From the IMG/VR virus record IMGVR_UViG_3300042450_001219: a DNA stretch of 54,669 nucleotides; one strand, written 5' to 3'. The DNA is from an uncultured virus (IMG/VR IMGVR_UViG_3300042450_001219). Its lineage: Duplodnaviria; Heunggongvirae; Uroviricota; Caudoviricetes. Under the pieces are notes generated by a model. That model was not told where the DNA came from, made no database searches, and saw only the letters and a program-made list of their open reading frames with translations. The translations under genes were made by a program, and so were the position numbers. Shown piece after piece: positions 2,740 to 54,669 of the stretch (position 1 is the first letter of the stretch; every line of letters starts with the position of its first letter).

Positions 2740-2744
2740 GCTAA

Positions 2745-6935: not shown

Positions 6936-6992
6936 TTTATTCTCCTTATGTATGTAACGGTATATATCCGTTTGTAACCACTTATATTATTT

Positions 6993-10073: not shown

Positions 10074-10540
10074 ACTGGTACAAAGTTCCCTTCTGTTGTC
10101 TTAGTATACAATATAGTGTTGTGTTTGAGAAGAGCCCTCATCTCATTTCTTGAAGGCATATTATTAGAATAACCTGATTCTAATATAAACTCATGAATGT
10201 CCATAATGTCCGATTCGCTATACATAAACTTATACCATGTGCTATCTGGATTACCTATCGGATATACTTTTTGTGGGTATCTTATCTTCCCGTCCAAAAT
10301 GTAATCTTCTATAGTAACCTTATGCTTGCCAAGCATTTGAGCTACTTGACTAGTTGAATATGCATTCTCCATAGTTTTTAAAACTTGTGAATAAGAATAC
10401 AACAATCTTTTTTTATCAGGATAGCACCAAGCAACCATTTGGTCTTTAGATCTTGAATGACTTAATACTTTATGTATCTTGTTATTTAAGAAGAAATACC
10501 GAATGCTTTTAGTTGGCTGTTTTCTCTTTTTTCTATCCAT
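10058..10540 (-). CDS. helix-turn-helix DNA-binding protein (MerR/excisionase-like)
   Basis: YSTSQVAQMLGKHKVTIEDYILDGKI winged-HTH pattern. Confidence 0.7.
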   Translation of the reverse strand: MDRKKRKQPTKSIRYFFLNNKIHKVLSHSRSKDQMVAWCYPDKKRLLYSYSQVLKTMENAYSTSQVAQMLGKHKVTIEDYILDGKIRYPQKVYPIGNPDSTWYKFMYSESDIMDIHEFILESGYSNNMPSRNEMRALLKHNTILYTKTTEGNFVPVWKAE

Positions 10541-10674
10541 TTACCTAGTGCACTCGTATCCTTATTAATCATCCATCTTTTACCGCACATCATGCAGAAA
10601 AGCTCTACGTGTAATTTTTGTGAGAATACTCTATCTACAAAAACCCTACCTTGACACTTATTGCATTTCATCAT
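10486..10674 (-). CDS. small zinc-ribbon protein
   Basis: CNKC...CMMCGKRW. Confidence 0.75.
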   Translation of the reverse strand: MMKCNKCQGRVFVDRVFSQKLHVELFCMMCGKRWMINKDTSALGKWIEKRENSQLKAFGISS

Positions 10675-12523: not shown

Positions 12524-15500
12524 TCAAGTTGTTGTAAAGGTTGTTGAGGCAGATGCTGAGGTTCCAGTTTGCGATGCCCCTGAGTAAACAGTTACCGTAA
12601 CAGTATATTCTGTTAAACGGGTTGCTCCAGTAACTTGTCTACTTCTAACGGTGGAACCACCAGTGGCTCCATTAAGAGCTGTGGAAGGAGAGGTTGCAAT
12701 AGAATATGAAGCCTGACCAGTAGAAGTCCAGGTTATAACTGCTCCAGTTCTAATTATGTTACTAGCTGTAATACTAGAAATTGTTGGGGCTGATGGGAAG
12801 AACGGTGGGAAGAACGGTGGGAAGAACGGTGGGAAGAATGGTGGGAAGAACGGGAAGAACGGCGGGAAGAACGGTGGGAAGAATGGTGGGAAGAACGGTG
12901 GGAAGAATGGGCCGACTGCAACTCTTGTTCCAGATACTCCAGGGCTAGACCAAGCTCCGTTGCCAACACTATTTTTTGCACGAACGTAGTAGTTGTTTGT
13001 GCCTACTGGGGCTCCAGTCCATACTGTAGTTATTATTGCTCCAACGGTGTGATCTGGGGTGTCGCTTGCTGATGGTACTCCGCCATACCAAATATCATAT
13101 CCAGTTGCGCCACTTACCTCAGTCCAAGATATCTCTACTCCGTCTGATCTAGTTGTAGAACAAGTTACTCCTGTAACCTGCGTTGGAAGTGATGGGAAGA
13201 ACGGTGGGAAGAACGGTGGGAAGAACGGTGGGAAGAATGGTGGGAAGAACGGACCAGCTGCTGCATTGACAGAAACTGCAGCAGAACGTGAGGCAGTTGA
13301 TGATCCACCTGAGTTAGTTGCCACTACGTCACAATACAAAGCGGACCCATATAGGGTTCTGTAGTTTGCTGGAGGCCTGTATGTTTGTCCTGTGCTTGTA
13401 AATGGAGATACAATACTTGCTGGTGCAGCTGGGTAAACGCTTCCTTGATCAAAGTATCTCCACTGATATGTAAAAGAAGTTGGAGAGTTAGTCCATGTTC
13501 CATCAGTAGTTGTGTATGTTGTAACTCCCTGTGTTCCAGTGCTAGGTGTTACAACTGGAGCTGTAAGTATTGTTGGAGCAACGACTGGCTTTATTGCTGT
13601 AATTAAAGTAAAGTTATCATCTACTCCATCTCTGCTAGTATTTCTAGTCATTCCTGCTACTGCAAAGTTGTCTGATGTTTGCAATGTAGATTCAGCCCAT
13701 GTTTGCGTAACAACATTATTATTATAAACAGCATTAGTGCTGTAAGAATCTACCCCGTTACTAATAAAATTAACATCAACTATGTTTGAGTCATAATAAA
13801 ATTTTGCTTGATATTCTGATATTTTTGTAGCATCTTGCCAATCAGCGCCTTTCCATCTTATATAAAAATTTGTAGAGTCTGAATAATGATATAGGAAAGT
13901 TTGCCTCTGGTCTCTCATTATAGGTGTTAAAAATACTCCAGTTATTGGTGGAGTTGATCCTGTTGACGTACTAGTTCCTATTCCAATAAAACCATTTGTT
14001 GATATATAAACATTTGTATTATTAGTAAAATTGCTTGGGAGGGTAACTCTTCTTTTAGCTAATGCTAACTGATTATTTGCATAGTAAGTATAGCTTAAAG
14101 AAGAAGTTGAGGATGTTGAAGTTGGCTTTGCTATAGAAGACAAGGAGGTTGGTGAGCCTGCAGTCCCAGCTCTAGTAGCTCCCGTCTGATTTAATCCAGA
14201 GTATGCCGTTACGCTATTTATAGATACAGTTGGATTAGAGGCTCCACCTACTGTAATGGTAAGTGGCATTGAATTTGTGTTTGATATGTATGTGCCATTT
14301 CCTCCTGATGCTCCAGACAAGTTCCAGCTTACAGCCCAGCTCTGCGCTCCAGACGTTGTGCTTACGTTAACATTTATTAATCTTGATTTTCCATATGCTT
14401 TAGTAAATGTGCTTATTGAAGAGCTTGAAGCAGAAGGAGATATGCTTAAAATCGCATCAGATGTACCTCCAGTAGGAACAAAATTTCCTGAAGAATTATA
14501 TTGATTTAATGTTGTTACTGCTTGAGTAATTGGTGCAGATATCGTTCCCCCCGTATTAGATCCAGCACCATAACTCAAAAGATCATAGGACTCAGTATCA
14601 GAAGGAAAAGATGCAGCCATTTCAACAAGAACGGTGTTTGATGTGGAAGAAACTCTAGTTTGTGTAGGCGCAGAAGGCGTAGTTACAGAGCTTACATTTG
14701 TCAATGAATATGTAAATGTACTTGGAGCTGAGGCAACTACATTAGTAGTCACTACTGAGACTTCAACACCAGTTGCCATACCCAGATCATAATCTGTTCC
14801 AGAGTTCTGTCTTGTTTCTGTAACATATAAATATTTACCATTGTCTGCTTCTACTGGAGTGTAAGATGCTCCATTTGCAAGAAAAGTTCCGCCGACTGTT
14901 GTGTTTGTTGAATTTCTATGCCATTGTACAAACGTGCTACGTGGTTTGTATGCTTCTCCAGCTTCCCATGTTGATGAATATGTTATTGGTGTTCCAACTG
15001 ACGGGCTATTTGTACTTAAGCTTGCTGTTAAATTTATAGGACTTTCTCTAATAACTTTTACTCTTGTTGAAAAAGACACACCATTGTATTGAGAGTTGGA
15101 TGAATTGTTTGCTGTAACTTCAAATGCTAAATATTGCTCATCCGCATTTGCTGAGTTGGTTGATGTCCATATTGCATATGGTAATTGATCTTGTCCACTA
15201 CCTGTAGAGTTTGGTGCTACAACAGACCAAGTTGTTCCGCTTCTTAAGGTTGTTAATAAATCTGTACCATTCTGATCGTAAAGTTTCCATCTGTATGTAT
15301 ATGATGATACATTCCATCCATTTAAATCCCAGTCAGCATTATTTCCAAAATAGGAGTCGCCTATTCTAATTACTGGATAAGTGGAATTAGGCATTCTTCC
15401 TGCATATGCATCTGATGCAAGGTATCCAATATATGGAACTCTTGTAGCAAAAATTCCTGACAGGGGCCAAACCTTAAGCCACTGAGTGGTATTTTTAATC

Positions 15501-15616
15501 CATACGCCAGCTGCCGCCTTCCATCCACCAGATCCAGTAGTACTCTTAACAAAAAGATTAGTTATTTTTTTCCAACCACCAGAGCCCGTAGTGCTTTTAA
15601 TAAAAATGTCTGACAT
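12524..15616 (-). CDS. tail fibre / adhesin with Ig- and FN3-like domains and PPFF-repeat linkers (1030 aa)
   Basis: Ser/Thr-rich; N-terminal KSTTGSGGWK duplication; Ig-like GTWTNSPTSFTYQW...CDVVATNSGG; FN3-like ISWTEVSGATGYDIW...YYVRAKNSVGNG; last gene of the tail block. Confidence 0.8.
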   Translation of the reverse strand: MSDIFIKSTTGSGGWKKITNLFVKSTTGSGGWKAAAGVWIKNTTQWLKVWPLSGIFATRVPYIGYLASDAYAGRMPNSTYPVIRIGDSYFGNNADWDLNGWNVSSYTYRWKLYDQNGTDLLTTLRSGTTWSVVAPNSTGSGQDQLPYAIWTSTNSANADEQYLAFEVTANNSSNSQYNGVSFSTRVKVIRESPINLTASLSTNSPSVGTPITYSSTWEAGEAYKPRSTFVQWHRNSTNTTVGGTFLANGASYTPVEADNGKYLYVTETRQNSGTDYDLGMATGVEVSVVTTNVVASAPSTFTYSLTNVSSVTTPSAPTQTRVSSTSNTVLVEMAASFPSDTESYDLLSYGAGSNTGGTISAPITQAVTTLNQYNSSGNFVPTGGTSDAILSISPSASSSSISTFTKAYGKSRLINVNVSTTSGAQSWAVSWNLSGASGGNGTYISNTNSMPLTITVGGASNPTVSINSVTAYSGLNQTGATRAGTAGSPTSLSSIAKPTSTSSTSSLSYTYYANNQLALAKRRVTLPSNFTNNTNVYISTNGFIGIGTSTSTGSTPPITGVFLTPIMRDQRQTFLYHYSDSTNFYIRWKGADWQDATKISEYQAKFYYDSNIVDVNFISNGVDSYSTNAVYNNNVVTQTWAESTLQTSDNFAVAGMTRNTSRDGVDDNFTLITAIKPVVAPTILTAPVVTPSTGTQGVTTYTTTDGTWTNSPTSFTYQWRYFDQGSVYPAAPASIVSPFTSTGQTYRPPANYRTLYGSALYCDVVATNSGGSSTASRSAAVSVNAAAGPFFPPFFPPFFPPFFPPFFPSLPTQVTGVTCSTTRSDGVEISWTEVSGATGYDIWYGGVPSASDTPDHTVGAIITTVWTGAPVGTNNYYVRAKNSVGNGAWSSPGVSGTRVAVGPFFPPFFPPFFPPFFPPFFPFFPPFFPPFFPPFFPPFFPSAPTISSITASNIIRTGAVITWTSTGQASYSIATSPSTALNGATGGSTVRSRQVTGATRLTEYTVTVTVYSGASQTGTSASASTTFTTT
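12794..12910 (-). repeat. coding tandem repeat [PFF(PPFF)4]x2 + P
   Basis: 12-bp unit CC(A/G)CC(A/G)TTCTTC with one internal 9-bp unit; 117 bp, 39 codons. Confidence 0.97.
13193..13252 (-). repeat. coding tandem repeat PFF(PPFF)4 + P
   Basis: Same 12-bp unit; 60 bp, 20 codons. Confidence 0.97.
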
Positions 15617-23825: not shown

Positions 23826-24418
23826 ACCTGCTCCATTGATATAGATACACTCCAGAAGGTCTGCAGGCCTCTTTTAAGGACAGTAAAGTCACATGAGGTA
23901 AACATTACCGTATAAGTATAATCATCGGCCAAGGTGCCAGCATCAGCAGTTATTAGGGATGGATTAAATACCGTTGGATTTAGTTTTATCCTAAAAGATC
24001 CTCTTCCTGCATCCGACTCATAAAAATTCTTTATGTCTTCTGCACCCCATCCACCATCTACTGTTTCATTTCTAAATGATGGCAACATTTCCCAAGATAC
24101 ACTTATGTTTAGCTTATCGGCAATAAAATATTTTCTTAGTGTTCCATTTGACATTCTTTGGCTAGATTCAATTCTATTTGTAGTTATAGCAAGGGGATCT
24201 CTATTATGCTCTGTAACTCTTCTAAATTTTAACTCCGCTCTATCCTCGTATCGTAGCGGCCAAGTTTTTGTTAGAGCATTATAGGCAGGATAAACATTTC
24301 CTGGCGGAGTAATTGTTTCACCCTTGTAGTTAAAAGTATTGTTTGCAGTATTAATTGCAAATGGGTCAATTGCTTCGATATATAACACAGATCCTTTTGC
24401 TAAGTTTTGAAAACTCAT
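23822..24418 (-). CDS. distal tail protein (Dit-like)
   Basis: Directly after the tape measure; RMSNGTLRKYFIADK...SVSW...WSVSISMEQV. Confidence 0.6.
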   Translation of the reverse strand: MSFQNLAKGSVLYIEAIDPFAINTANNTFNYKGETITPPGNVYPAYNALTKTWPLRYEDRAELKFRRVTEHNRDPLAITTNRIESSQRMSNGTLRKYFIADKLNISVSWEMLPSFRNETVDGGWGAEDIKNFYESDAGRGSFRIKLNPTVFNPSLITADAGTLADDYTYTVMFTSCDFTVLKRGLQTFWSVSISMEQV

Positions 24419-45477: not shown

Positions 45478-47241
45478 TTACAGAGTTTGGAACACTACCC
45501 TGTCTCTTGAGTATGTTGACACAGGCCCTTGTGTCATTGACATTGACGATCCTTGCCCAACAGATAAAGATTTGCCTATATAAAGGTCATAATGCTCTTG
45601 GTGGCTAATTGATGGATCTTGGTACAGTGCAATATTCTGATACTGGTTATCGTCAAGGACTCCAGACCTTACTCCTAAAAGCTGCTTGCCATTAAACCAA
45701 ATGGGTCCAGTTATTGTTGAAGCTGTTTTTATTAATATATAATTTGGCTCACCTATATATAAATAAGAAGATATGTTTGTTGCCGAAGAAATGTCCTGAC
45801 CATTTACGTATACATTGCTAATATTAGATTTTGATATTGCCCCTCCTGCCGCCCAAGAAAACGATGTTTCTACTTCTCCAGTTTTATTAAATATAAGGTT
45901 ACCACTAGATAATGATTTTGGAGTAAGTATCATTTCAATGTTTCTAACATCCTCTACTGAGTTTATAAAAAATGCTGAAGATTTTGGCCTTATTCCATTA
46001 TCAGAGCTTCTGGTTCTAATTGGATATTTATTGTTTGATACATCAAAGTCCCAAGTGCTCCCAATAGTTGGTTGCGAAGTAGCCAATGTGCTTCCTCCAT
46101 TATGAGAAAACACTTTCTTTTCAGAATGGAAGTAAATTTTTAAAGAGTAAAGCTCTGGCAAGTAAATGTCTGAGTTTGTAGAGGTAAACACAAATTTAAA
46201 ATATAGTATTTTATTTGAAGAAAATCCAGAACCTTGAGAAAATCCTGGTATAGATGATCCATTTACACACGGTGTCCAGGGGCCAGATTCAGATGTTTCT
46301 GATACATATACTGAAACTCCTTTTGAAGATACCCACTCTATACTTGAAGATACATATTGATTTGTAATGTTTAAAACTAGATCTTCTATAAACTCTCCGC
46401 TAGTAAATCCTGAATTTAAATAAATACTGTTATTCTTTTGGCTATATGACAATGCTGCATTATCGTATACAAGGTCTCTCCAGGGTACCTGAACGGGATA
46501 AACATATTTTGTTGCTATGTCTTGATATCTTTCTGCCCCTATAAATAACTCACCTAACTCTGGAACTGCAACCTGCTCATCATTATTTAAAAATAAATTA
46601 TTGTAATGCGATAATATTGAATTTCCAGAAAGAGCATATCTGTAAACTGCTGGACAGTCAATTATAAAATGTTCTCCTGCTGGGGCTGGCCCAGATGATA
46701 ACGTTATGCTTGGATTTGTAAAAGATATAGATATGGGCTTGCTTTCAACCAAAACTCCATCTATATACAAACTCATTGAGCTTACAGAGTATACTCCAAC
46801 AACATGAAGCACTCTGCTTGGATTAGGGACAGAGTAATCAAGTCTTTCATTTTCTAATTTAAAAACTACGTTGCCGTTGTCCCAATATAAACCAATTCCA
46901 TCTATATCTGCAAATATTGGAGTTATAGATGTTAGCGTTTTTGGATGAAACCATGCTTCAAGCGTAAAGTCGTTGTCGTAGGTTGATGGGGTTCCAAATC
47001 CTCCCGTGCCAGTAGTTCCAGAAAAATCTTTTGAAATGACAAACTGAATTGATTTAGTGCTATCTATTTTATTTGAATGCCGACCTCCAGAGACTATTGG
47101 CATTCCAGATATCTCAATTCCACCCACATAAGATCCATTGTTACCGCACCCAGAAATATCGTAGGCAACAGAGCCAGAAGTCTCATCAAGCTTCCATAGT
47201 CCCGTAGGAAAATCTTTTATTGTAGAAAGGTAGTATGACAT
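45478..47241 (-). CDS. LamG / concanavalin A-like domain protein (587 aa), probable virion protein
   Basis: WKLDETSGSVAYDISG.GNNG, FTLEAWF, HVVGVY...LYIDGVLV, AVYRYALS. Confidence 0.8.
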   Translation of the reverse strand: MSYYLSTIKDFPTGLWKLDETSGSVAYDISGCGNNGSYVGGIEISGMPIVSGGRHSNKIDSTKSIQFVISKDFSGTTGTGGFGTPSTYDNDFTLEAWFHPKTLTSITPIFADIDGIGLYWDNGNVVFKLENERLDYSVPNPSRVLHVVGVYSVSSMSLYIDGVLVESKPISISFTNPSITLSSGPAPAGEHFIIDCPAVYRYALSGNSILSHYNNLFLNNDEQVAVPELGELFIGAERYQDIATKYVYPVQVPWRDLVYDNAALSYSQKNNSIYLNSGFTSGEFIEDLVLNITNQYVSSSIEWVSSKGVSVYVSETSESGPWTPCVNGSSIPGFSQGSGFSSNKILYFKFVFTSTNSDIYLPELYSLKIYFHSEKKVFSHNGGSTLATSQPTIGSTWDFDVSNNKYPIRTRSSDNGIRPKSSAFFINSVEDVRNIEMILTPKSLSSGNLIFNKTGEVETSFSWAAGGAISKSNISNVYVNGQDISSATNISSYLYIGEPNYILIKTASTITGPIWFNGKQLLGVRSGVLDDNQYQNIALYQDPSISHQEHYDLYIGKSLSVGQGSSMSMTQGPVSTYSRDRVVFQTL

Positions 47242-47415: not shown

Positions 47416-47443
47416 ATTATACTACAACAACTACTAAAATCAA
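47416..47443 (-). promoter_or_regulatory. promoter, probably leaderless transcript
   Basis: TTGATT-N16-TATAAT, 7 nt before the ATG at 47408. Confidence 0.6.
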
Positions 47444-47913
47444 CAGTCTAGCTTTTTGTCAATTCCCAGATTTGATAGGAATCTTTCTGGGTCAAATCTC
47501 CAGTTATCCTTGGCAAATGAGGTCATTATTTCCATGCATGCATCCTCATATGATTCGATTGAAATTAAAGGCTTTAGCTTTAATAGGGTTTCTGTAATAT
47601 CAATATAATTTGTTCTTAAAAATGTAGGATCCCCAGCTTGATTTCTCTTGAATACCTTTTCGTTAATTCTTCCATTTGGCTCATATAGCCTAACCGTTAA
47701 ATATTGCTTTGCAAATCCCCAGTCCTTATACATATTATATGCTTCTGCTGCTTCAATGGCATTAGGAAAGAATATAATTGATCTTGCTGGTTCTTCCCCG
47801 TCTCTTGCAATCGTAAGCATGTACGCATCACTTTTTTTGCTGGCTACCGTTTCAAGATAATCTTTAACTATATCATGATGTTCTTGCTTTAGCTGACCAC
47901 TCATTATGTCCAT
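47440..47913 (-). CDS. hypothetical protein (157 aa)
   Basis: ORF track; DNWRFDPERF C-terminal motif; true start may be the third-residue-downstream Met (MSGQ). Confidence 0.7.
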   Translation of the reverse strand: MDIMSGQLKQEHHDIVKDYLETVASKKSDAYMLTIARDGEEPARSIIFFPNAIEAAEAYNMYKDWGFAKQYLTVRLYEPNGRINEKVFKRNQAGDPTFLRTNYIDITETLLKLKPLISIESYEDACMEIMTSFAKDNWRFDPERFLSNLGIDKKLDC

Positions 47914-48491
47914 CCCATATTAAAGTGTTCTCTATATTCCAGATAATCAATTGCGTATGGGTCTACCCACCAGTCTTCATGCCATTGTCTTACAACTAAT
48001 TTGTAGCCAAGTGAGGACAGGATTTCTCTTTGAGCTTCTCTCATGCCCTTATTGTTATATTCAATTTGTGCATCATGTTCAAAAGTTATTATAGAATATC
48101 TGTACTTGCTCAGAGGCACTGCTAATAGTCCATGCAATGTTAAATAAGGATTTCCAACAGCATTTCCCTGCTGGGTGTATCCAGCATCAATATCTACTTG
48201 TAAATAATCAATTTGTTTTGGGAAGTTGTTTTCTTCAAAGTAGGACAGATAATTAAAATGTGTAGCATCTCCAAGGATACATGGGTTCTTTCTGTTTGCA
48301 ACAAATTCAGCATGTCTTTGCTTGTCTATCTCAAACGATACGCCGTTCCAATTATAATCTGTTTCTAAATGATATGTGTTGCTTCCTTGCTTAGAATCAA
48401 AAGCACCAAGCTCTACATAAAAACCATTTTCTTTATTTTTGAGCAATTGGGTGACAAATCTTTCTTGACCGCTAGTTCCTTTATATTCCAT
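47904..48491 (-). CDS. FkbM / Methyltransf_21-like SAM-dependent methyltransferase
   Basis: SGQERFV, GFYVELGAFD...SNTY.LE...WNGVSFE, IDYLQVDID, ITFEH, LGYKLV. Confidence 0.8.
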   Translation of the reverse strand: MEYKGTSGQERFVTQLLKNKENGFYVELGAFDSKQGSNTYHLETDYNWNGVSFEIDKQRHAEFVANRKNPCILGDATHFNYLSYFEENNFPKQIDYLQVDIDAGYTQQGNAVGNPYLTLHGLLAVPLSKYRYSIITFEHDAQIEYNNKGMREAQREILSSLGYKLVVRQWHEDWWVDPYAIDYLEYREHFNMGWT

Positions 48492-49071
48492 TTATTTCTC
48501 CAAAAACATCTTTATTTAAAGACACAACTTCATTTAGTTTATGCTTTACAAACATTGTAGACATATATCTAGTTATATTATCTTGAACTGGAAGCGTTCC
48601 GTGAAGTATTTCTCCTCCATGTAAAAGCAATGACCCTGCAGTTGGTTTATGAATTATTTTAAGATCTGGATAATTTAGTTCTCCACCCTTATAGTCATCG
48701 TTATAGTAAATAACTACACCATAAAAAATTTTTTCATCGTTAATTCTATGGCCCTCATGATCGTCAGTATGCTCTCCTAGGGCATCGTTTATCAAGTATC
48801 TTTGTAAATTTATTCCAGTCACTTGTACGTAACCAGTAAACAATCTACAGACTCTCTCATAAATCTTAATAAACATTGGGTCTTCATTTATAAAACTGCT
48901 ATTTAAAACTTTATCTTTCCAGAAATCGTAAGTAATGTTTTCTTCATGCCAGTCTGAATTGACCCTTGCTTTTATAAATTGCATTACCTGATCAAGCTCG
49001 TCTTCTGTTATAAAATTTTGTATTTCATAAACTTGATCAGATAACTTTACAATTTTATAGTCTAGCATCAA
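48481..49071 (-). CDS. 2OG-Fe(II) oxygenase, prolyl-hydroxylase-like
   Basis: HTD, VIYYNDDYKGGEL, LHG, RY. Confidence 0.9.
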   Translation of the reverse strand: MMLDYKIVKLSDQVYEIQNFITEDELDQVMQFIKARVNSDWHEENITYDFWKDKVLNSSFINEDPMFIKIYERVCRLFTGYVQVTGINLQRYLINDALGEHTDDHEGHRINDEKIFYGVVIYYNDDYKGGELNYPDLKIIHKPTAGSLLLHGGEILHGTLPVQDNITRYMSTMFVKHKLNEVVSLNKDVFGEINGI

Positions 49072-49076
49072 CTACA

Positions 49077-49835
49077 TTACTCTTGGTTTTGTTCATGGTA
49101 TGCTTTAATGTATTCTTCTGATGGTCCACCTGGGCCACCTACAACATAACCATCAACAAATATAAATCCAGGAGTAATAAACTTTTCTCCTTCTTTCATA
49201 ATATGAACTTGGTGCTTGTATGGATCTGTAGATGGGAAAATTAATGCGCTTCCAGCTTTTGGCTTTGCAGTAAATGTAACCATATCTTTAGTCCTTGGGT
49301 CTAGCGCATCATCTGGTGGTCTAAGATGACCATTCATTTCTAACCTGAGATCTTCTGGTCTAATAACAAACGATATTTCTCCGCCTTCATAGTCATCATT
49401 CCAGTAAATAATAATTGACCACTCTAGGCTATTATCTCCAGCTTGTCTATCAAAGTGAGCTCCCATTGCACAGCCTGGGATATACTTTTGTATACCAACA
49501 AACGGTGATACGTTTGGAACTCCCTTAAGGCCTCGATCAACAATAAAGGATTCTGATATATTCTTAATAGCATTTCTAATTGTTGATATGATAAAGTCTA
49601 CATCTTTTCTTATATCTTCATCTAAATTTTCTACTTCAGAAAGATTAAAGTCCTTTTTCTTTCCAAAGATGTTACCGTCTCTGCTGCTTGAATTCCAGTT
49701 TTTCCAGCTTGGAATAACCTTGTGAACTCTTTCATCAGAATCTAGCTTATTTATCAAATCAATAATTGCTTGTGGATTCTCAATTACATCTGAGTACATG
49801 TAAACATTTTCATGTAATTTTTCTTCTAGCTTCAT
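49077..49835 (-). CDS. 2OG-Fe(II) oxygenase, prolyl-hydroxylase-like
   Basis: HFD, IYWNDDYEGGEI, KPKAGSALIFPS, HQV, GEKF. Confidence 0.9.
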   Translation of the reverse strand: MKLEEKLHENVYMYSDVIENPQAIIDLINKLDSDERVHKVIPSWKNWNSSSRDGNIFGKKKDFNLSEVENLDEDIRKDVDFIISTIRNAIKNISESFIVDRGLKGVPNVSPFVGIQKYIPGCAMGAHFDRQAGDNSLEWSIIIYWNDDYEGGEISFVIRPEDLRLEMNGHLRPPDDALDPRTKDMVTFTAKPKAGSALIFPSTDPYKHQVHIMKEGEKFITPGFIFVDGYVVGGPGGPSEEYIKAYHEQNQE

Positions 49836-50578
49836 TAGTCGTTCTCCTCTATTTTGTATTTATTTCCGTCTAGATCTATTCTGTATCCTTCTTTTAATGC
49901 ATCTTGCCATTCCGACTTTATTACTTCTTGCTCTTCTCTAATTTTTTTCATCTCTGCATCCCAAGCATCTATTGTTTCTTGAGGATATGACTCTGGTGAC
50001 CGATTGTCCCAAAATGATCCGAGAGTGTATCTTATTCCAGAAGTTATCATTGTAACCTCATGAGTATTATCAAAGCCACCTGCAAAAGATGCAAGTGTGC
50101 CAGTCTCTGGAACTAGTGTATGGTTTTGTTTATTAAATATTAGATTGCCACCTTCAAAATCATCATTTAGATACAAGAAAGCTGCGTATCTACTTCTTTC
50201 AAACGGGCCTGTTTTTCCTTCTAAATCTGTATTGTCAGAATGCTCTTTAGCATAAGCTCCTGGCTCCCACTTTTGAGCATGAAATCCAATTTTATGAATA
50301 TCAGATGAAGAATTTCCATGCACCTCAGCTACAGCATCAATAATTCTATTTTGAAGAACTGAAAAGAAATCTGATGGCAAGCCGAACTGCTCTAGCTCTT
50401 CATCTCCGTCTTGGGGCAAAACTGATGAGTATGATTCATAGAAAGTGATAGGTGTCCAAGATAGCTTTTCATTTGCAACCTGCGCCTCTAAAACATCTAT
50501 AACCTTTTTAGATTCTTCTTTTGTTAAAAAGTTTTTAAATACTAAAATGTCTGGCGTTAATCTTTCTGAAGTACTCAT
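49835..50578 (-). CDS. 2OG-Fe(II) oxygenase, prolyl-hydroxylase-like
   Basis: HSD, LYLNDDFEGGNL, HEV, GIRY. Confidence 0.9.
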   Translation of the reverse strand: MSTSERLTPDILVFKNFLTKEESKKVIDVLEAQVANEKLSWTPITFYESYSSVLPQDGDEELEQFGLPSDFFSVLQNRIIDAVAEVHGNSSSDIHKIGFHAQKWEPGAYAKEHSDNTDLEGKTGPFERSRYAAFLYLNDDFEGGNLIFNKQNHTLVPETGTLASFAGGFDNTHEVTMITSGIRYTLGSFWDNRSPESYPQETIDAWDAEMKKIREEQEVIKSEWQDALKEGYRIDLDGNKYKIEEND

Positions 50579-51306
50579 TTATTTATATCTCCATCTAGTA
50601 GTATTCTGTGATATTTTTTATTTGGGTCTGGCTGATTTTCTCCAGTATGTTTTAGTATTTCCCAGAAAAATGGGCAAGTGTACCTGATAGCGCCTTTTAT
50701 TTCTGTTACCCCATGAATATAATTCATATCTCCTGGGAAGAAGTATGCTGCTCCTTTTTTAGGCTTAAACTGTACACCTTGAAGTGGAAAATATAATTCT
50801 CCACCTTCGTATTCATCATTTAAATAAAATAAACTTGAAAGATCATAATAAGGAAAATCATTTGGCATTCCAATATCTGGCAGCTCGTGAAGCTCTTTGT
50901 CGGCATGAGGCTTTTGAAATTGGCCAGGAAGCCAGCGAACAATTGTTGTGCCTGTTGGAGTTACTTTAACTTTATAAAAATCTTCAACAATAGGCTTTAG
51001 CCTTTCAAACAAACCTTGAAGAACTGGCCTAATTGCTGGGTCATTTTTGTCTAAAGAAGGGCTTGTGCAAACTCTATCTTTCCAGTAGTTAGCGTCGTAT
51101 ACAGTTGTACCATTTTCATTTACATGGCTTTCTGTTACATCCCAAATAGTAATCTTTCTGGCAGCTGATTCGAGAAACTCTATCTCTTCCTCGGTCATAA
51201 AGTTTTCTATCTCAACTATCATGTCTTTGCTTGACCCAAAAAACCCAGAAGGAGTTAAGGAAGGGGTCTTGTATACGACTGAAGCGTCTTGATTTGTCTG
51301 ATTCAT
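50575..51306 (-). CDS. 2OG-Fe(II) oxygenase, prolyl-hydroxylase-like
   Basis: HAD, FYLNDEYEGGELYF, HGV, IRY. Confidence 0.9.
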   Translation of the reverse strand: MNQTNQDASVVYKTPSLTPSGFFGSSKDMIVEIENFMTEEEIEFLESAARKITIWDVTESHVNENGTTVYDANYWKDRVCTSPSLDKNDPAIRPVLQGLFERLKPIVEDFYKVKVTPTGTTIVRWLPGQFQKPHADKELHELPDIGMPNDFPYYDLSSLFYLNDEYEGGELYFPLQGVQFKPKKGAAYFFPGDMNYIHGVTEIKGAIRYTCPFFWEILKHTGENQPDPNKKYHRILLDGDINK

Positions 51307-51312
51307 ATTATT

Positions 51313-51321
51313 ATTATATCA
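51313..51321 (-). promoter_or_regulatory. extended -10 promoter, probably leaderless transcript
   Basis: TGATATAAT followed after 6 nt by the ATG at 51306. Confidence 0.55.
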
Positions 51322-52041
51322 TTTCTTATTGCCTGAAGTAAGGTCTGTAATCTTCAACTTTAAAGACTTAACCTCATGATGGCCGCTTCCCATAGGACTG
51401 CCATCGTAATCCACTGCATCTCTATAAAAATTTGTATGCTCTCCTGTTTGAGTAATTTTTTCCCAGACTTTTAGTCTTTCTTCTCTGCGTGTATAATCAG
51501 ACTCTTTAAAGAATTTATCTTTTATTTCAAGCTCTATATTTTGATACTCCCCTAAAGATATTGGAATAAATGTTGCTACAGGCATTCCTGCTGGAATTTT
51601 TATAACTGTATTTGGCCTTGTTATTTTCCACGCAATGGGTATGCCTTCTTTCAAAACAGATGTTGAAATAATTGTTGTAAATGGAGTAGCCCCATCCACA
51701 AAAAAATTAGGGGGGACTATTTGAAGCATAGACATATTTGGTTCTGTTTCAAAGTAGTATCCAGAATAAAAACTAATTGTGGCATTTGCTCTTTGCCCAG
51801 TGGCGACCATTCCTGGATCTGATATTATTGTTACATGATCTGGGGTTGTATCTGAAATGCCGTCCCAACTAAACTCAATATCATCTAGAAAAGAAATTGA
51901 CCAACCAATAGTATTTGCTAAAGAAACAGGAAAACATTTATATGCATGGGCATTTAAAGTTTCATCCATCCAATCTCTTTTAAGTTTAGTTTGTTCAATC
52001 TTAGATCTAGTTGATTTATTTTTATAGGCTGTTATTTTCAT
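51319..52041 (-). CDS. DUF6065-like protein
   Basis: RDWMDET..HAYKCFPVSLANTIGW, PPNFFVDG, WKITRPN, GMPVATFIP. Confidence 0.7.
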   Translation of the reverse strand: MKITAYKNKSTRSKIEQTKLKRDWMDETLNAHAYKCFPVSLANTIGWSISFLDDIEFSWDGISDTTPDHVTIISDPGMVATGQRANATISFYSGYYFETEPNMSMLQIVPPNFFVDGATPFTTIISTSVLKEGIPIAWKITRPNTVIKIPAGMPVATFIPISLGEYQNIELEIKDKFFKESDYTRREERLKVWEKITQTGEHTNFYRDAVDYDGSPMGSGHHEVKSLKLKITDLTSGNKK

Positions 52042-52732
52042 TTATCTCATTGTCCCATTTTGGATCATACATCTCTTGAGTATGAAACTTTTTGCTATAA
52101 TCAAGCATGGTTACTATTGAATATTTTGTTCCTTTTGTTACGGCTTTTGCTTGATGTGGATACATAAAGTTAGATGGGAAAATATACAGGTCCCCAGCTT
52201 TTGGCTTAATATCTAAGCCTTGCAGTCTAAAAAATAATCCGCCATCATCATAATCATCGTTTACATATCCCACTAAAGAAACTACACAGTTGTAAGAATA
52301 TCCGTGATCTTGATGTTCCATAAAATGCTGGCTCTCTCCATACTTAATAAAGTTAAAAGCTTCCCAATATTTAAGCTCCATAATATTATGAGCCTTGCAA
52401 TAATCTACAACTACTGGATATTGAGCATCATAAACATCTTGCCATAAAGATTTTAGTTTTTCAGCGTCTTCGCTTTTATCAAGGGCAATGTCGCTTTTTT
52501 TAAATTTAAAATCTACGCAATCTCTATAGTCTGGCATTAGTTGCTGATAGCCAACATAGGCTGGTTGATAATTATATCTTTTTTCTTTACCGCCAACTGG
52601 ACCCACTGCTCCTTCAAGCCTATTTATAATGTCAAATTCTTTTTTTAATACGTCTCTATATACAAATATTCCAGGAGCTAGTTCTTCTTTGCTACTCCAT
52701 GTTGGAGCTGTACTTTTTGTTTCTGTTGTCAT
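52022..52732 (-). CDS. 2OG-Fe(II) oxygenase, prolyl-hydroxylase-like
   Basis: HQD, YVNDDYDDGGLFF, KPKAGDLYIFPSNFMYPH, GTKYS. Confidence 0.9.
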   Translation of the reverse strand: MTTETKSTAPTWSSKEELAPGIFVYRDVLKKEFDIINRLEGAVGPVGGKEKRYNYQPAYVGYQQLMPDYRDCVDFKFKKSDIALDKSEDAEKLKSLWQDVYDAQYPVVVDYCKAHNIMELKYWEAFNFIKYGESQHFMEHQDHGYSYNCVVSLVGYVNDDYDDGGLFFRLQGLDIKPKAGDLYIFPSNFMYPHQAKAVTKGTKYSIVTMLDYSKKFHTQEMYDPKWDNEINENNSL

Positions 52733-53502
52733 TTATACTCTCTCTTTTTCCAAATTTTTGATTTGTATACTCCACCGTCAGGCTGACGATAAAACTTTGC
52801 ATTGTCCATTAATTTTTTTTGCATTTCTTTTACCTCAAGGTACTCGACTTCATGATTCCAGTCTTCTCTTTTAAATGGTAGAATTTGCAAAAATGGTGTC
52901 CCTTTTGGAATTGTTCCTTCCCAATCTTTTGCAATAAAAAATGGGAAAGTTCCAAGTAAGTGTACTTCGTCGTTATCAACAACTCCGCTTGTATTTAAAA
53001 ATGGCAAATCAAATCTGTTCATTGGTGTCATAAATAACGCACTGTATCCTTTTGGAACTTGAATTCCCCATTCTGGATACCAGGCAAAATGGTCTTCGTA
53101 ATATCCAACTGGAGATGGAAATTGTTGCATAGGAGGTCTTTCTGTTACAAAGCCTACATGCTTTTTATCTTTTATTTCTACAGATATTGTTCCCTTTTTA
53201 TTTTTTGAAAATATTAAATCACACGGGGTACTTAATACATATCCAGTCATAAAAGCATCTAATATTGCTGGACAAGCTTTCCATGTTGGAATTTTGCCAT
53301 AGTCGTCCTTTGTGCCTTCTCTTGGAACAGGGCAAACTTCTTTAGGAGCTTTATAGTATTCTCCGTTAGGCATTTTTGCAAATCTGTCCGCCTCTTTATA
53401 CCATTCAGGAATGCTGCTTTGTGTTGGTTTTGGCAAAGAGGGGCTAAACTTATCTAGCCACGGCCTAAAAGATTGAAATAATATTTTAATATTTTTCTCC
53501 AA
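52729..53502 (-). CDS. DUF6065-related protein (possible dUTPase-like fold)
   Basis: IPEWYK, TWKACPAILDAFMTGY, PKGYSALF..PMNRFDLPF..SGVVDND, IPKGTPFLQILPFKREDW. Start tentatively the TTG at 53502 (GAGG upstream); track gives 53526. Confidence 0.6.
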   Translation of the reverse strand: MEKNIKILFQSFRPWLDKFSPSLPKPTQSSIPEWYKEADRFAKMPNGEYYKAPKEVCPVPREGTKDDYGKIPTWKACPAILDAFMTGYVLSTPCDLIFSKNKKGTISVEIKDKKHVGFVTERPPMQQFPSPVGYYEDHFAWYPEWGIQVPKGYSALFMTPMNRFDLPFLNTSGVVDNDEVHLLGTFPFFIAKDWEGTIPKGTPFLQILPFKREDWNHEVEYLEVKEMQKKLMDNAKFYRQPDGGVYKSKIWKKREYK

Positions 53503-54190
53503 CCTCTTCTTTATGATAAAGATCATTATAATCCATCATGATAACTACGGAATATTTTGTTCCAGACGATATATTTAAAGAAGCATGCTCATAAACAAAG
53601 TTAGATGGGAACAATATTATGTCTCCCGCTTTTGGCTTTAAAGTAAGATTATGTCTTGGGAATTCAATTTCCCCGCCATCGTAATCATCATTTAAATATA
53701 CAACTGCTGACACTGTACATGTATAATATGGACCGTGGTCAGCATGTACTTTAAAAAATTCTCCTGGCAAATACTTTACAAAGTTAAATGCTTCCTTGTA
53801 ATTAATGTGAAAATTCCATACTGATTCATAATGTCTTAATGATTTATTTAATCCCGCATCGACAATGTCATAGCATTCTTTTAAAACATCGCTGTCAGAA
53901 ATATATTTACCCAGCTGATCTTTTTTAAATTTTAAATCATAGCAATTTCTAGCGTGAGTAGTTCTTTCTTTTCCATTAACTTTTGCGCCGTTCCATTGAA
54001 TTCCGTTTTTGCCTAAAGATATTTCTTCTTCAAGCATAGTGATTACTCTTTGACAGTCTTCTTGACTTATTGCATTTCTATAAAGGTTTATGCCGTAGTC
54101 TAGGTTCTCAACAAGTATATTATCGTCAATTTTTTTTGACTCAACTCTTGAACTTGTTTTTTCAATTCTTGGTAGGTCGTACCATTCCAT
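53486..54190 (-). CDS. 2OG-Fe(II) oxygenase, prolyl-hydroxylase-like
   Basis: HAD, VYLNDDYDGGEIEF, KPKAGDIILFPSNFVYEH, GTKYS. Confidence 0.9.
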   Translation of the reverse strand: MEWYDLPRIEKTSSRVESKKIDDNILVENLDYGINLYRNAISQEDCQRVITMLEEEISLGKNGIQWNGAKVNGKERTTHARNCYDLKFKKDQLGKYISDSDVLKECYDIVDAGLNKSLRHYESVWNFHINYKEAFNFVKYLPGEFFKVHADHGPYYTCTVSAVVYLNDDYDGGEIEFPRHNLTLKPKAGDIILFPSNFVYEHASLNISSGTKYSVVIMMDYNDLYHKEEVGEKY

Positions 54191-54252
54191 ATTATCTCAT
54201 TTCTACGATAACATCTTATCATACTATTCTAGAAAAGAAAAGTATATTTTAT

Positions 54253-54669
54253 TTAGTACATTCCTCCGCCGAAGTAAGGTGGGAAGAACGGGAAGGACGG
54301 TCCGAATGATGGGAAGAACGGTCCGAATGATGGGAAAAACGGTCCGAATGCTGGGAAGAACGGTGGGAAGAACGGTCCGAATAGTGGGAAGAACGGGAAG
54401 GACGGGCCTTTAAAGAATGGGAAGTATGGTGGGAAGAATGGTGGGAAGAACGGTGGGAAGAATGGTGGGAAGAACGGCGGGAAGAATGGGAAGAACGGTG
54501 GGAAGAATGGTGGGAAGAACGGTGGGAAGAACGGTGGGAAGAATGGGAAGAACGGTGGGAAGAACGGTGGGAAGAATGGTGGGAAGAACGGCGGGAAGAA
54601 TGGGAAGAACGGTGGGAAGAATGGTGGGAAGAACGGTGGGAAGAACGGTGGGAAGAATGGGAAGAACGG
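54253..54669 (-). CDS. Pro/Phe-repeat protein, C-terminal 138 aa (start lies beyond window end)
   Basis: Open frame to the window edge: tandem PFF(PPFF)4 units then PPYFPFFKGPSFPFFPLFGPFFPPFFPAFGPFFPSFGPFFPSFGPSFPFFPPYFGGGMY-stop; variation in the pure array is at third codon positions of this frame. Confidence 0.85.
   Translation of the reverse strand, partial: PFFPFFPPFFPPFFPPFFPPFFPFFPPFFPPFFPPFFPPFFPFFPPFFPPFFPPFFPPFFPFFPPFFPPFFPPFFPPFFPPYFPFFKGPSFPFFPLFGPFFPPFFPAFGPFFPSFGPFFPSFGPSFPFFPPYFGGGMY
54427..54669 (-). repeat. coding tandem repeat with 12-bp, 57-bp and 114-bp periodicity
   Basis: PPFF units, with a single-Pro PFF unit every 57 bp; the rare CCG-CCG unit recurs at 54475 and 54589. 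Confidence 0.95.

What the first reader, a model, noticed from the sequence alone, without database searches (positions are those of the whole stretch)
47904..54669. Candidate new system: PPFF-repeat proteins plus a dedicated battery of prolyl-hydroxylase-like enzymes
Seen: an ORF whose visible C-terminus is almost only Pro and Phe lies directly upstream of nine co-oriented enzyme-like genes: six 2OG-Fe(II) oxygenases with intact HxD...H triads, two DUF6065-like proteins and an FkbM-type methyltransferase. The same repeat occurs in a tail-fibre gene about 41 kb away. Established: enzymes of this prolyl 4-hydroxylase-like family hydroxylate Pro-rich repeats (collagen, plant extensins, a chlorovirus P4H), and hydroxyproline can be further glycosylated or otherwise modified. 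Inference: the phage post-translationally modifies the PPFF arrays of its own virion proteins (Pro and perhaps Phe hydroxylation, then methylation), giving a substrate-plus-tailoring-enzyme cluster resembling RiPP loci but aimed at the virion surface. I know of no description of this pairing, but could not check the literature.
Basis: partly seen in the sequence, partly recalled or inferred. Interest (0 to 1): 0.92.

Follow-up and report, generated by a model that had tools for sequence, protein, structure and literature searches.

The report
Phage Pro-Phe fibre tail with hydroxylases
An uncultured lake phage has a fibre-region protein ending in an almost pure proline-phenylalanine polymer, directly followed by six collagen-hydroxylase-like enzymes, which makes the polymer a testable candidate substrate for phage oxygenases whose role is still unknown.

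Summary
A minus-strand ORF cut by the window end (54253-54669) is 46% Phe and 40% Pro. It lies 62 nt upstream of nine abutting genes:
- six PF13640 2OG-Fe(II) oxygenases with invariant HxD...H;
- two DUF6065-like proteins with a predicted dUTPase fold;
- one class I methyltransferase-fold protein, which no FkbM model matches.

The same 12-nt unit forms two in-frame linkers in a 1030-aa fibre protein 41 kb away.

Array and cassette travel together.
- 68 of 81 long viral loci found through the repeat carry the cassette.
- 46 of 46 and 52 of 52 testable loci found through an oxygenase carry an array, in two different gene arrangements.
- Among portal relatives, 26 of 30 loci with oxygenases have an array, against 0 of 6 without. 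In four of those six, the homologous FN3 proteins end in a Gly-rich domain instead.

The nearest solved relatives of four of the six oxygenases are collagen prolyl 3- and 4-hydroxylases.

No chemistry is shown, so substrate assignment is inference. The literature searches found no description of the pairing. The Syn9 dioxygenase array (Iyer 2010) is the closest precedent. This scan has already reported the same system on at least eight other genomes.

The parts
54253..54669 (-). C-terminal 138 residues of the Pro/Phe-array protein. It is PFF/PPFF units followed by a GFG-rich tail ending GGGMY. The ORF is cut by the window end.
   Evidence: The full-length 348-aa homologue (N-terminal non-repeat region plus array) is in L002.
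53486..54190 (-). Oxygenase ox6 (234 aa), 62 nt downstream of the array ORF.
   Evidence: PF13640 at 46.5 bits. B. anthracis P4H 1e-5 and LH3 4e-4. HxD...H present.
52729..53526 (-). DUF6065-like protein duf2 (265 aa).
   Evidence: phrog_7084 at 3e-35. Aligns with duf1 in A2. No Pfam hit.
52022..52732 (-). Oxygenase ox5 (236 aa).
   Evidence: PF13640 at 45.8 bits. PDB matches are weak only (P3H1 0.048). HxD...H present.
51319..52041 (-). DUF6065 protein duf1 (240 aa) with a predicted dUTPase-like fold and an invariant Cys36.
   Evidence: PF19541 at 5e-32. AF2 model pLDDT 85.7. dUTPases reach Z up to 11.2. Invariant C36 and G46.
50575..51306 (-). Oxygenase ox4 (243 aa), the paralogue used here to trace the cassette through other loci.
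   Evidence: PF13640. Family profile against PDB: P3H1 1.6e-7, BaP4H 2.6e-6. Invariant H134, D136, H198, R208 across 16 homologues.
49835..50578 (-). Oxygenase ox3 (247 aa).
   Evidence: PF13640. P3H1 1.6e-6. Weak match below cut-off to the YhhC cyclophane-peptide oxygenase.
49077..49835 (-). Oxygenase ox2 (252 aa) with a 27-residue insert in the barrel.
   Evidence: PF13640 at 36.7 bits. HxD...H present. No meaningful PDB sequence match.
48481..49071 (-). Oxygenase ox1 (196 aa).
   Evidence: PF13640 at 27.6 bits, just over the cut-off. BaP4H 2.6e-3.
47904..48491 (-). Class I SAM-methyltransferase-fold protein (195 aa), an accessory member of the cassette.
   Evidence: AF2 model pLDDT 84.2. 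472 Foldseek matches at E<=1e-3; every row shown in the output is a methyltransferase. No Pfam, NCBIfam or PHROG hit.
47440..47913 (-). 157-aa protein of unknown family that follows the cassette in related loci.
   Evidence: 34 homologous ORFs in the fetched loci. No family hit. Atlas shows viral-only clusters.
12524..15616 (-). 1030-aa fibre-type protein with two in-frame PFF/PPFF linkers: nt 13193-13252 (residues 789-808) and nt 12794-12910 (residues 903-941).
   Evidence: A weak fn3 match at the C-terminus. It lies after the tape measure and minor tail genes.

Best explanation
**Proposed mechanism.** The window belongs to an uncultured, long-tailed lake siphovirus. Its fibre-region proteins carry arrays of P-P-[F/Y/H/W]-F units, either as C-terminal tails or as inter-domain linkers. 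The gene for one such protein is followed, operon-like, by a cassette that the phage uses in the host cytoplasm to modify these arrays after translation, before or during fibre assembly.

**Roles of the parts.**
- The six P4H/P3H-like Fe(II)/2OG oxygenases most likely hydroxylate array prolines, at different ring positions or sequence contexts. Aromatic or terminal Lys residues are possible further targets.
- The two dUTPase-fold DUF6065 proteins act as non-oxygenase helpers, in recognition, assembly or an unknown Cys-dependent step.
- The methyltransferase-fold protein is an optional extra tailoring step.

**Shown:** gene content, catalytic residues, the predicted folds of DUF6065 and the methyltransferase, and the genomic coupling of array and cassette.

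**Inferred:** that the array is the substrate, which residues are modified, and that the product sits on the virion.
For: Of the 81 with long flanks, 68 hold homologues of the window's oxygenases or DUF6065 at phmmer E<=1e-3, usually adjacent.

**2. From oxygenase to repeat, window clade.** In loci found through ox4 (74-95% identity), 46 of 46 with at least 4.5 kb upstream have an array upstream on the same strand. All 20 loci without any array have less than 4.5 kb upstream.

**3. From oxygenase to repeat, second clade.** In a second ox4 clade (36-41% identical to the window's ox4), 52 of 52 loci with at least 2 kb on both sides have an array. Here it is mostly on the opposite strand, about 1 kb away, so the gene arrangement differs.

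**4. Presence and absence among relatives.** Of 36 loci anchored on the portal gene with at least 9 kb upstream:
- 30 have oxygenases, and 26 of those have a Pro/aromatic array;
- 3 of the other 4 are cut at the locus edge;
- 6 lack oxygenases, and none of those has an array.

Fisher p = 1e-4, not corrected for relatedness. The six keep the LamG-p114-portal backbone. In 4 of them, homologues of the array protein's N-terminal (non-repeat) part lack the array; in three of these (L351, L356, L364) a Gly_rich_2 domain stands at the C-terminus instead.

**5. Different carrier proteins.** Arrays beside cassettes sit on PASTA, FN3 and He_PIG domains, and upstream of Hint/intein-like or Peptidase_S74 domains.

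**6. Closest solved relatives.** They are collagen P3H1, B. anthracis P4H and LH3 for ox1, ox3, ox4 and ox6. All six keep HxD...H plus a basic residue.

**7. Mostly viral.** The array is nearly absent from cellular genomes: 10 stretches in 185,579 species genomes, all in MAG contigs. Six are phage-like, five of them with cassette genes in the fetched flanks; four are short ORFs without a cassette.

**8. Operon-like layout.** Genes abut or overlap, with no excess of terminator-like sites.
Against: - No chemical evidence of any kind exists, and no cultured phage carries the system.
- The loci are related phages. Many agreeing loci therefore reflect few independent events: about 15 ox4 clusters at 50% identity, two of which hold 188 of 216 loci.
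- 13 of the 81 repeat-found loci show no cassette within the flanks. Eight are large fibre proteins. Three (L044, L053, L062) have at least 4 kb on both sides. One (L029) has the array at the locus edge. One (L033) is a 62-aa ORF.
- In this window, a second array-bearing gene lies 41 kb from the cassette.
- Six or more diverse paralogues seem excessive for a four-residue repeat.
- The dUTPase fold and the methyltransferase would equally suit nucleotide or small-molecule chemistry.
- The related Syn9 array has no Pro/aromatic array anywhere in its genome.
- For the chlorovirus P4H, hydroxyproline was not found in virions (PMC7019647).
- ox2 has no detectable solved relative, and ox5 has only weak ones.
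Confidence: 0.6

Rival explanations
1. The cassette makes or tailors a small peptide or secondary metabolite, or modifies other fibre or host proteins. This is the role Iyer et al. proposed for the Syn9 dioxygenase array. On this reading the array gene is merely a conserved neighbour at the end of the fibre module.
For: - The Syn9 array has ten dioxygenases, a dUTPase-fold Cys protein homologous to DUF6065 (hhalign probability 94.9%, E 4.7e-8) and Trp halogenases. It sits right after the fibre genes.
- Syn9 has no Pro/aromatic array.
- The many divergent paralogues fit multi-step chemistry (PMC2938197).
- ox3 weakly resembles a cyclophane-peptide oxygenase (E 7.8e-4, below cut-off).
- Array genes can lie far from the cassette.
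Against: - No peptide synthetase, halogenase or precursor-like small ORF lies among the nine genes.
- Adjacency survives a change of strand and of carrier protein.
- In cassette-less relatives the array specifically is missing while homologues of its carrier protein's N-terminal part remain.
Confidence: 0.2
2. The cassette acts on nucleotides or phage DNA. Base hydroxylation or hypermodification would use the oxygenases, with a dUTPase-like protein and a methyltransferase in support.
For: - DUF6065 has a dUTPase fold (Z 11.2).
- The methyltransferase's best fold matches are RNA methyltransferases.
- ox4 has a sub-threshold Tet_JBP match (E 0.0016, 18.1 bits against a 34.9 cut-off).
- Older cyanophage papers suggested DNA repair (PMC3037559).
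Against: - No oxygenase passes an AlkB or Tet/JBP model, and their significant solved relatives are protein hydroxylases.
- The cassette sits in the fibre/head module, not with the replication genes at 864-11471.
- This reading leaves the coupling to the array unexplained.
- dUTPase motifs were not examined, and sequence identity to dUTPases is 6-15%.
Confidence: 0.07
3. The oxygenases are auxiliary metabolic genes that consume 2-oxoglutarate or oxygen to reprogramme the host. This is the nitrogen-stress model proposed for cyanophages, and on it they are unrelated to the array.
For: Sullivan et al. 2010 proposed it for the numerous 2OG oxygenases of cyanomyoviruses (PMC3037559, passages read).
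Against: - It does not explain six conserved distinct paralogues, the DUF6065 partners, the position in the fibre module or the joint presence and absence with arrays.
- The phage is not a cyanomyovirus: it has a 3924-aa tape measure and its protein matches to cyanophages are all under 30% identity.
Confidence: 0.05

Closest known systems
Tandem dioxygenase array of Synechococcus phage Syn9, gp41-gp54 (Iyer, Abhiman, de Souza, Aravind 2010, PMC2938197; passages read)
   Same: Both are tandem runs of divergent Fe/2OG dioxygenases. Both include a protein with a conserved Cys and a dUTPase fold: Syn9 gp43 matches the DUF6065 profile (hhalign probability 94.9%). Both lie directly after tail-fibre genes.
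   Different: Syn9 has Trp halogenases, a JmjC member and mainly 2OG-FeII_Oxy_5 or DUF6445 types. It has no Pro/aromatic array in its genome. The authors proposed halogenated secondary metabolites, not a co-encoded protein substrate.
Chlorovirus PBCV-1 prolyl 4-hydroxylase and Pro-rich peptides (Eriksson et al. 1999, seen only as cited in PMC7019647; PDB 5c5t)
   Same: A virus-encoded P4H-type enzyme that hydroxylates Pro-rich repeat peptides in vitro.
   Different: It is a single enzyme in a eukaryotic virus with no adjacent substrate gene. Its role is unknown, and hydroxyproline was not detected in virions. Sequence similarity to the window's enzymes is not significant (5c5t E 0.2-0.5).
Animal collagen maturation enzymes (P3H1 8k0e, LH3 6fxk) and Bacillus anthracis P4H (3itq, 5hv0)
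   Same: They are the nearest solved sequence relatives of ox1, ox3, ox4 and ox6. The logic matches too: several hydroxylase types act on one short Pro-rich repeat of a fibrous protein.
   Different: The substrate repeat here has no Gly and is half aromatic. Similarity covers only the catalytic barrel, at E 1e-7 to 3e-3. No PDI-type subunit or peptide-binding domain is present.
RiPP tailoring clusters
   Same: A genetically encoded substrate sits next to dedicated tailoring enzymes.
   Different: There is no leader-core precursor and no RiPP recognition element was detected. The arrays are parts of 110- to 1570-aa structural proteins.
Mimivirus collagen-like proteins with a viral lysyl hydroxylase/glycosyltransferase, plant extensins and mussel foot proteins
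   Same: Hydroxylated Pro/aromatic-rich repeats serve as surface fibres or adhesives. In the mimivirus case both enzyme and substrate are viral.
   Different: They have different repeat chemistry and no multi-paralogue battery. No homology was tested here.

Membership tests
2OG-Fe(II) oxygenase superfamily (Pfam PF13640, 2OG-FeII_Oxy_3) | Pfam model at or above its gathering score | tested here: met
   6 of 6 pass: 27.6, 36.7, 34.7, 35.3, 45.8 and 46.5 bits against a cut-off of 27. ox1 is only just over.
2OG-Fe(II) oxygenase superfamily (Pfam PF13640, 2OG-FeII_Oxy_3) | HxD...H iron triad plus a basic residue for the 2OG C5 carboxylate | tested here: met
   H, D and H columns are invariant among the six paralogues, with R or K about 10 residues after the distal His. 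H134, D136, H198 and R208 are invariant in 16 ox4 homologues.
2OG-Fe(II) oxygenase superfamily (Pfam PF13640, 2OG-FeII_Oxy_3) | Double-stranded beta-helix fold | not tested
Collagen-type prolyl hydroxylases (P4H/P3H) | Significant sequence similarity to characterised members | tested here: inconclusive
   ox4 profile: P3H1 1.6e-7, BaP4H 2.6e-6. ox3: P3H1 1.6e-6. ox6: BaP4H 1e-5. ox1: BaP4H 2.6e-3. ox5 is weak only (0.048) and ox2 has none.
Collagen-type prolyl hydroxylases (P4H/P3H) | Forms hydroxyproline in a peptide substrate | not testable with these tools
   Needs an enzyme assay or mass spectrometry.
DUF6065 (Pfam PF19541) | Pfam model above its gathering score | tested here: met
   51319-52041 scores 111.7 bits against 26.6. 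52729-53526 has no Pfam hit. It is linked only through phrog_7084 and alignment A2 at 14-18% identity.
dUTPase / dCTP deaminase superfamily | Beta-barrel dUTPase fold | tested here: met
   For the predicted model (pLDDT 85.7), 13 chains reach Z>=8, almost all of them dUTPases (one is the HCMV tegument protein pp71); best is 1dun at Z 11.2 over 120 aligned residues. Foldseek best E is 6.8e-4.
dUTPase / dCTP deaminase superfamily | The five catalytic dUTPase motifs | not tested
   Sequence identity is 6-15%. Conserved columns (W24, C36, G46, D54, N112, G152, P154) were not mapped onto the motifs.
FkbM methyltransferase (Pfam PF05050, Methyltransf_21) | Family model match | tested here: not met
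   No Pfam hit even at E<=5 and no NCBIfam hit at E<=1. The same Pfam model did find a true FkbM protein in locus L342 (4.5e-19).
Class I SAM-dependent methyltransferases | Rossmann-like methyltransferase fold | tested here: met
   Model pLDDT 84.2. There are 472 Foldseek matches at E<=1e-3, and every row shown in the output is a methyltransferase (top: Bud23, 8.5e-7). SAM binding was not tested.
RiPP biosynthetic cluster | Short precursor with leader and core, released by proteolysis | tested here: not met
   Arrays are tails or linkers of 110- to 1570-aa FN3, PASTA or fibre proteins. Some are followed by Hint or S74 self-cleaving-type domains, which would remove a C-terminal cap rather than a leader.
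Syn9-type tandem dioxygenase array (Iyer et al. 2010) | Several divergent dioxygenases in tandem, with a Cys-bearing dUTPase-fold protein | tested here: met
   Six paralogues at 19-30% mutual identity. DUF6065 corresponds to Syn9 gp43.
Syn9-type tandem dioxygenase array (Iyer et al. 2010) | Trp halogenases and a JmjC/MINA member | tested here: not met
   None appear among the window's nine genes by Pfam, PHROG or NCBIfam.

The most novel reading that the evidence does not exclude
P-P-[F/Y/H/W]-F arrays are a previously unrecognised fibrous or adhesive protein material on phage fibres, a glycine-free counterpart of collagen or extensin. On this reading the array folds or functions only after multi-site hydroxylation by a dedicated battery of P3H/P4H/LH-like enzymes, and trimeric dUTPase-fold DUF6065 proteins serve as assembly or recognition partners. 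The Peptidase_S74 and Hint caps found on some arrays, and the recurrent free '...xFK' C-terminus, would then mark a self-processed, probably trimeric stalk. This would assign the first substrate to the tandem oxygenase arrays noted in phage genomes since 2007-2010.
Probability: 0.35. Interest if true: 0.85.

Novelty: new variant of a known kind. Interest (0 to 1): 0.72.

Why it matters
- **An orphan enzyme class gets a candidate substrate.** Multiple 2OG oxygenases in aquatic phage genomes have been attributed to DNA repair, 2OG drawdown or secondary metabolites, without experimental support in the passages read (PMC3037559, PMC2938197). A co-encoded, co-inherited substrate that is easy to synthesise turns this into a bench experiment.
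- **A possible new biomaterial.** If confirmed, this would be a new post-translationally modified protein polymer, Pro/aromatic and glycine-free, made by viruses.
- **The system is common.** At least 586 and 528 viral contig stretches encode the two ox4 clades. At least 24 lake-water metagenome runs hold this very stretch.
- **It may bear on host recognition.** The arrays sit where related phages carry Gly-rich fibre tips.

Tried and rejected
- **Complex prediction.** ox4 family alignment plus Fe plus array residues 1-60 returned 'no answer' (score 0.02, mark 0.32). This is not evidence either way.
- **RNA evidence.** No RNA holder is listed among the 24 runs.
- **Whole genome.** None is held for this window.
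- **Cultured phages, nucleotide searches.** No match.
- **Cultured phages, protein searches.**
  - ox6: only matches under 30% identity to cyanophage oxygenases.
  - ox4: five weak partial matches.
  - duf1: none.
  - duf2: only haloarchaeal viruses at about 27% identity.
- **Regulatory signals.** The promoter and terminator scan is not above shuffled controls. No tRNAs were found.
- **FkbM assignment.** Rejected at family level.
- **Tet/JBP reading of ox4.** Rejected as sub-threshold.
- **PHROG labels.** 'DNA endonuclease V' and 'ferrochelatase' for these oxygenases were not adopted. These PHROG families cover the same region as the 2OG oxygenase matches, and the same product names appear on Syn9 array genes.
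- **First array detector.** The regex (P{1,2}[FYWH]F){4,} missed (PPGFFx)n variants and gave false 'no array' calls for L293, L295, L306 and L313. It was replaced by a composition detector: at least 9 P and at least 9 F/Y/W per 30 aa.
- **Literature.** Searches for 'DUF6065' returned 0 papers and 'PPFF' with 'phage' returned 2 irrelevant papers. Searches on bacteriophage with hydroxyproline, prolyl hydroxylase and tail fiber, and on proline-phenylalanine repeat, found no description. Supplements of PMC2938197 were not opened and might list related arrays.

Full report
**Observation**

All genes in the window run on the minus strand.
- ORF 54253..54669 is open to the window end. Its 138 visible residues are 64 Phe, 55 Pro, 8 Gly and 4 Ser, built from PFF/PPFF units and ending ...PPYFGGGMY-stop.
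- The DNA is a 12-nt tandem unit (22 copies, score 357) with a 57-nt higher-order period at 94% matches.
- Because the sequence is repetitive, the other two frames of the same strand are open as well. Three results fix the frame:
  - The same unit occurs twice, in frame, inside the 1030-aa ORF 12524-15616, as GPFF(PPFF)n linkers at residues 789-808 and 903-941.
  - The 83%-identical relative L002 has a complete 348-aa ORF in that frame. It consists of an N-terminal non-repeat region (no Pfam family above threshold), about 100 aa of array and a GFG-rich tail.
  - In 120 of 121 viral stretches found with a degenerate (PPFF)4 pattern, the array lies in an ORF in this frame.
- Array codons are unusual for this genome. 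They use TTC 62 against TTT 2, and CCG for 22 of 55 Pro. The tape-measure gene uses TTT 108 against TTC 19, and CCG for 4 of 163 Pro.

**The nine downstream genes**

ORFs from 53486-54190 down to 47904-48491 abut or overlap, and the first starts 62 nt after the array ORF.
- Six pass Pfam PF13640. They share invariant HxD...H, with R or K about 10 residues after the distal His.
- ORF 51319-52041 is DUF6065 (E 5e-32).
- ORF 52729-53526 has no Pfam hit but shares phrog_7084 with it.
- ORF 47904-48491 hits no Pfam, NCBIfam or PHROG model. Its AF2 model (pLDDT 84.2) has a class I SAM methyltransferase fold, with 472 Foldseek matches at E<=1e-3. 'FkbM-type' is therefore unproven, whereas 'methyltransferase fold' is supported.
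- Promoter-like and terminator-like sites are not above shuffled controls.

**Context**

- The window carries portal, protease, major head protein, a 3924-aa tape measure, minor tail proteins, two fibre-size ORFs, and then replication genes. This is a long-tailed siphovirus, not a T4-like cyanophage.
- No cultured phage is close.
- At least 24 lake-water metagenome runs hold the stretch, and none is on record as RNA.
- In L002 the gene upstream of the array protein is a 1047-aa Mtd_N fibre protein. The array gene therefore closes a fibre block.

**Coupling of array and cassette**

*From repeat to cassette.* Of 81 pattern-found loci with long flanks, 68 contain homologues of the window's oxygenases or DUF6065, usually adjacent. 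The 13 without break down as follows:
- eight large fibre proteins like ORF 12524-15616;
- one with the array at the locus edge (L029);
- one 62-aa ORF (L033);
- three real exceptions within the fetched flanks (L044, L053, L062).

*From oxygenase to repeat.*
- Through ox4, at least 586 viral stretches encode relatives. Of the 80 kept (74-95% identity), 46 of 46 with at least 4.5 kb upstream have an array upstream on the same strand. The 20 loci without any array all have less than 4.5 kb upstream.
- Through a second ox4 clade (36-41% identical to the window's ox4), 528 stretches encode relatives. Of the 80 kept, 52 of 52 with at least 2 kb on both sides have an array, 46 of them within 3 kb. 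Most are on the opposite strand.

*Relatives anchored on the portal gene.* Of 36 loci with at least 9 kb upstream, 30 have oxygenases and 6 have none.
- With a composition detector, 26 of the 30 have a Pro/aromatic array. This count includes (PPGFFx)n variants followed by a Hint-like domain.
- Three more are cut at the locus edge (L292, L302, L303).
- One is a divergent cassette without an array (L341).
- None of the 6 loci without oxygenases has an array (Fisher p = 1e-4, not corrected for relatedness).
- The six keep the LamG-p114-portal backbone. In four of them, homologues of the array protein's N-terminal (non-repeat) part are present but lack the array; in three of these (L351, L356, L364) the C-terminus is a Gly_rich_2 domain instead. 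Collagen-repeat proteins and glycosyltransferases fill the slot in others.
- So the array and the cassette swap in and out together while the carrier protein's N-terminal part stays.

*Cellular genomes.* The pattern occurs only 10 times in 185,579 species genomes, always in MAG contigs. Six are phage-like, five of them with cassette genes in the fetched flanks; four are short ORFs without a cassette.

*Caveat on independence.* The loci are related. Single-linkage clustering of ox4-type proteins gives about 26 clusters at 70% identity and 15 at 50%, and two clusters hold 188 of 216 loci.

**What the enzymes resemble**

| Protein | Nearest solved sequences |
|---|---|
| ox4 (family profile) | P3H1 1.6e-7, B. 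anthracis P4H 2.6e-6, PiuC 8e-5 |
| ox3 | P3H1 1.6e-6 |
| ox6 | BaP4H 1e-5, LH3 4e-4 |
| ox1 | BaP4H 2.6e-3 |
| ox5 | weak only (P3H1 0.048) |
| ox2 | none |

- No oxygenase passes a nucleic-acid oxygenase model. ox4 has only a sub-threshold Tet_JBP match.
- DUF6065 (AF2 pLDDT 85.7) has a dUTPase-like fold, with Z up to 11.2 and 13 chains at Z>=8. It has an invariant Cys.

**Anatomy of arrays elsewhere**

- The unit is P-P-[F/Y/H/W]-F, or PFF.
- Arrays follow PASTA, FN3 or He_PIG domains.
- Many end the protein as ...xFK-stop. That is 90 arrays among those found in 240 array-bearing loci.
- Others are followed by Cys-rich tails, by Hint/intein-like domains starting at a Cys right after the array, or in L026 by a Peptidase_S74 'chaperone of endosialidase' domain right after ...PPAFK.
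- By recalled knowledge, S74 domains assist the folding of trimeric fibres and then cut themselves off. I therefore infer that arrays form a probably trimeric stalk whose C-terminus is freed. This is inference only.

**Literature**

- Iyer et al. 2010 described Syn9 gp41-54. [quoted passage not shown] They proposed secondary-metabolite synthesis (PMC2938197, passages read).
- Syn9 gp43 matches the DUF6065 profile (hhalign probability 94.9%). The Syn9 array follows its fibre genes.
- Syn9 has no Pro/aromatic array in the 30-kb region around its dioxygenase array and no (PP[F/Y]F)3 pattern anywhere in its genome.
- Sullivan et al. 2010 linked cyanophage 2OG oxygenases to DNA repair and 2OG levels (PMC3037559, passages read).
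- For the chlorovirus P4H, a review states that its role is unknown and that hydroxyproline was not detected in virions (PMC7019647, passages read).
- Searches for 'DUF6065', for 'PPFF' with 'phage', and two broader searches found no description of the pairing.
- This scan's earlier notes report the same system on at least eight other genomes. They pointed me to the Iyer paper, which I then read.

**Reading**

The best-supported explanation (about 0.6) is that the cassette hydroxylates the phage's own Pro/aromatic arrays, in the cytoplasm, before or during fibre assembly.
- The oxygenases differ in position or context specificity.
- DUF6065 acts as a non-oxygenase helper.
- The methyltransferase is an optional extra. 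There are 22 MT-type ORFs against 190 ox4-type ORFs in the loci.

The rivals are another peptide, protein or metabolite substrate with mere synteny (0.2), nucleotide or DNA chemistry (0.07), and host 2OG metabolism (0.05). The complex prediction gave no answer and counts for nothing.

**Verdict**

This is a real, widespread and tightly coupled gene pair, a new variant of 'virus-encoded prolyl-hydroxylase-like enzymes plus a Pro-rich viral protein', with an unprecedented substrate candidate and enzyme battery. The chemistry is untested.

Noticed in passing
window 24418-36192 (-): A 3924-aa tape measure protein, matched by several PHROG tape-measure families. By the usual length rule (recalled) this implies an exceptionally long tail, several hundred nanometres.
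   Followed up: no
window 54256-54669 versus 24418-36192: Array codons are strongly biased: TTC 62 to TTT 2, and CCG 22 of 55 Pro. This runs against the genome's preference for TTT and CCA/CCT. Both array-bearing genes, 41 kb apart, use the same 12-nt unit, which suggests repeat homogenisation, gene conversion or translational selection.
   Followed up: partly
window end 54669; many IMG/VR contigs (e.g. L005, L031, L127, L155, L168-L173): Contigs often begin or end inside a Pro/Phe array, as this window does. The repeats evidently break short-read assemblies, so array lengths and gene counts are underestimated.
   Followed up: partly
L293, L295, L306, L313 (about nt 175-1100); L327, L329 (about nt 2600-2900): Variant arrays occur with other periods, (PPGFFx)n and PPSFFSPPFFPPGFF, some followed by a Hint-like domain. 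They sit beside cassettes that lack an ox6-type first gene.
   Followed up: partly
L341 nt 437-6846: A divergent cassette holds three DUF6065-like genes and one oxygenase. It has no Pro/aromatic array, but the upstream 417-aa protein carries Cys/aromatic repeats (GPFYSQVCNSSS).
   Followed up: no
L370 (Halorubrum phage HRTV-17) nt 6857-7687: A DUF6065-like protein (about 29% identity to window 52729-53526) is encoded beside the tail-fibre and adhesin genes of haloarchaeal tailed viruses, with no oxygenase annotated nearby. This hints that the family's role is tied to fibres rather than to oxygenase chemistry.
   Followed up: partly
L351, L356, L363, L364, L367, L342 (upstream of portal): Cassette-less relatives fill the same slot with FN3 or He_PIG proteins ending in Gly_rich_2 domains, collagen-repeat proteins, glycosyltransferases and a true FkbM methyltransferase. 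The slot looks like a hot spot for fibre-tip diversification.
   Followed up: partly
L001, L013, L020, L042, L053: Small array proteins of 110-150 aa begin with a PASTA-like domain (Pfam E from 1e-9 to 5e-3, some below the cut-off). By recalled knowledge this domain occurs in peptidoglycan-binding proteins of Gram-positive bacteria, so it may be a host clue.
   Followed up: no
window 45478-47241 (-): A 587-aa Laminin_G_3 (concanavalin-like) protein lies between the cassette and the portal gene. It is conserved in all portal relatives, with or without the cassette.
   Followed up: partly
window 49835-50578 (-): ox3 weakly resembles NCBIfam NF041706, the cyclophane-containing-peptide 2OG oxygenase YhhC (E 7.8e-4, 19 bits against a cut-off of 150). 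This is a lead only.
   Followed up: no
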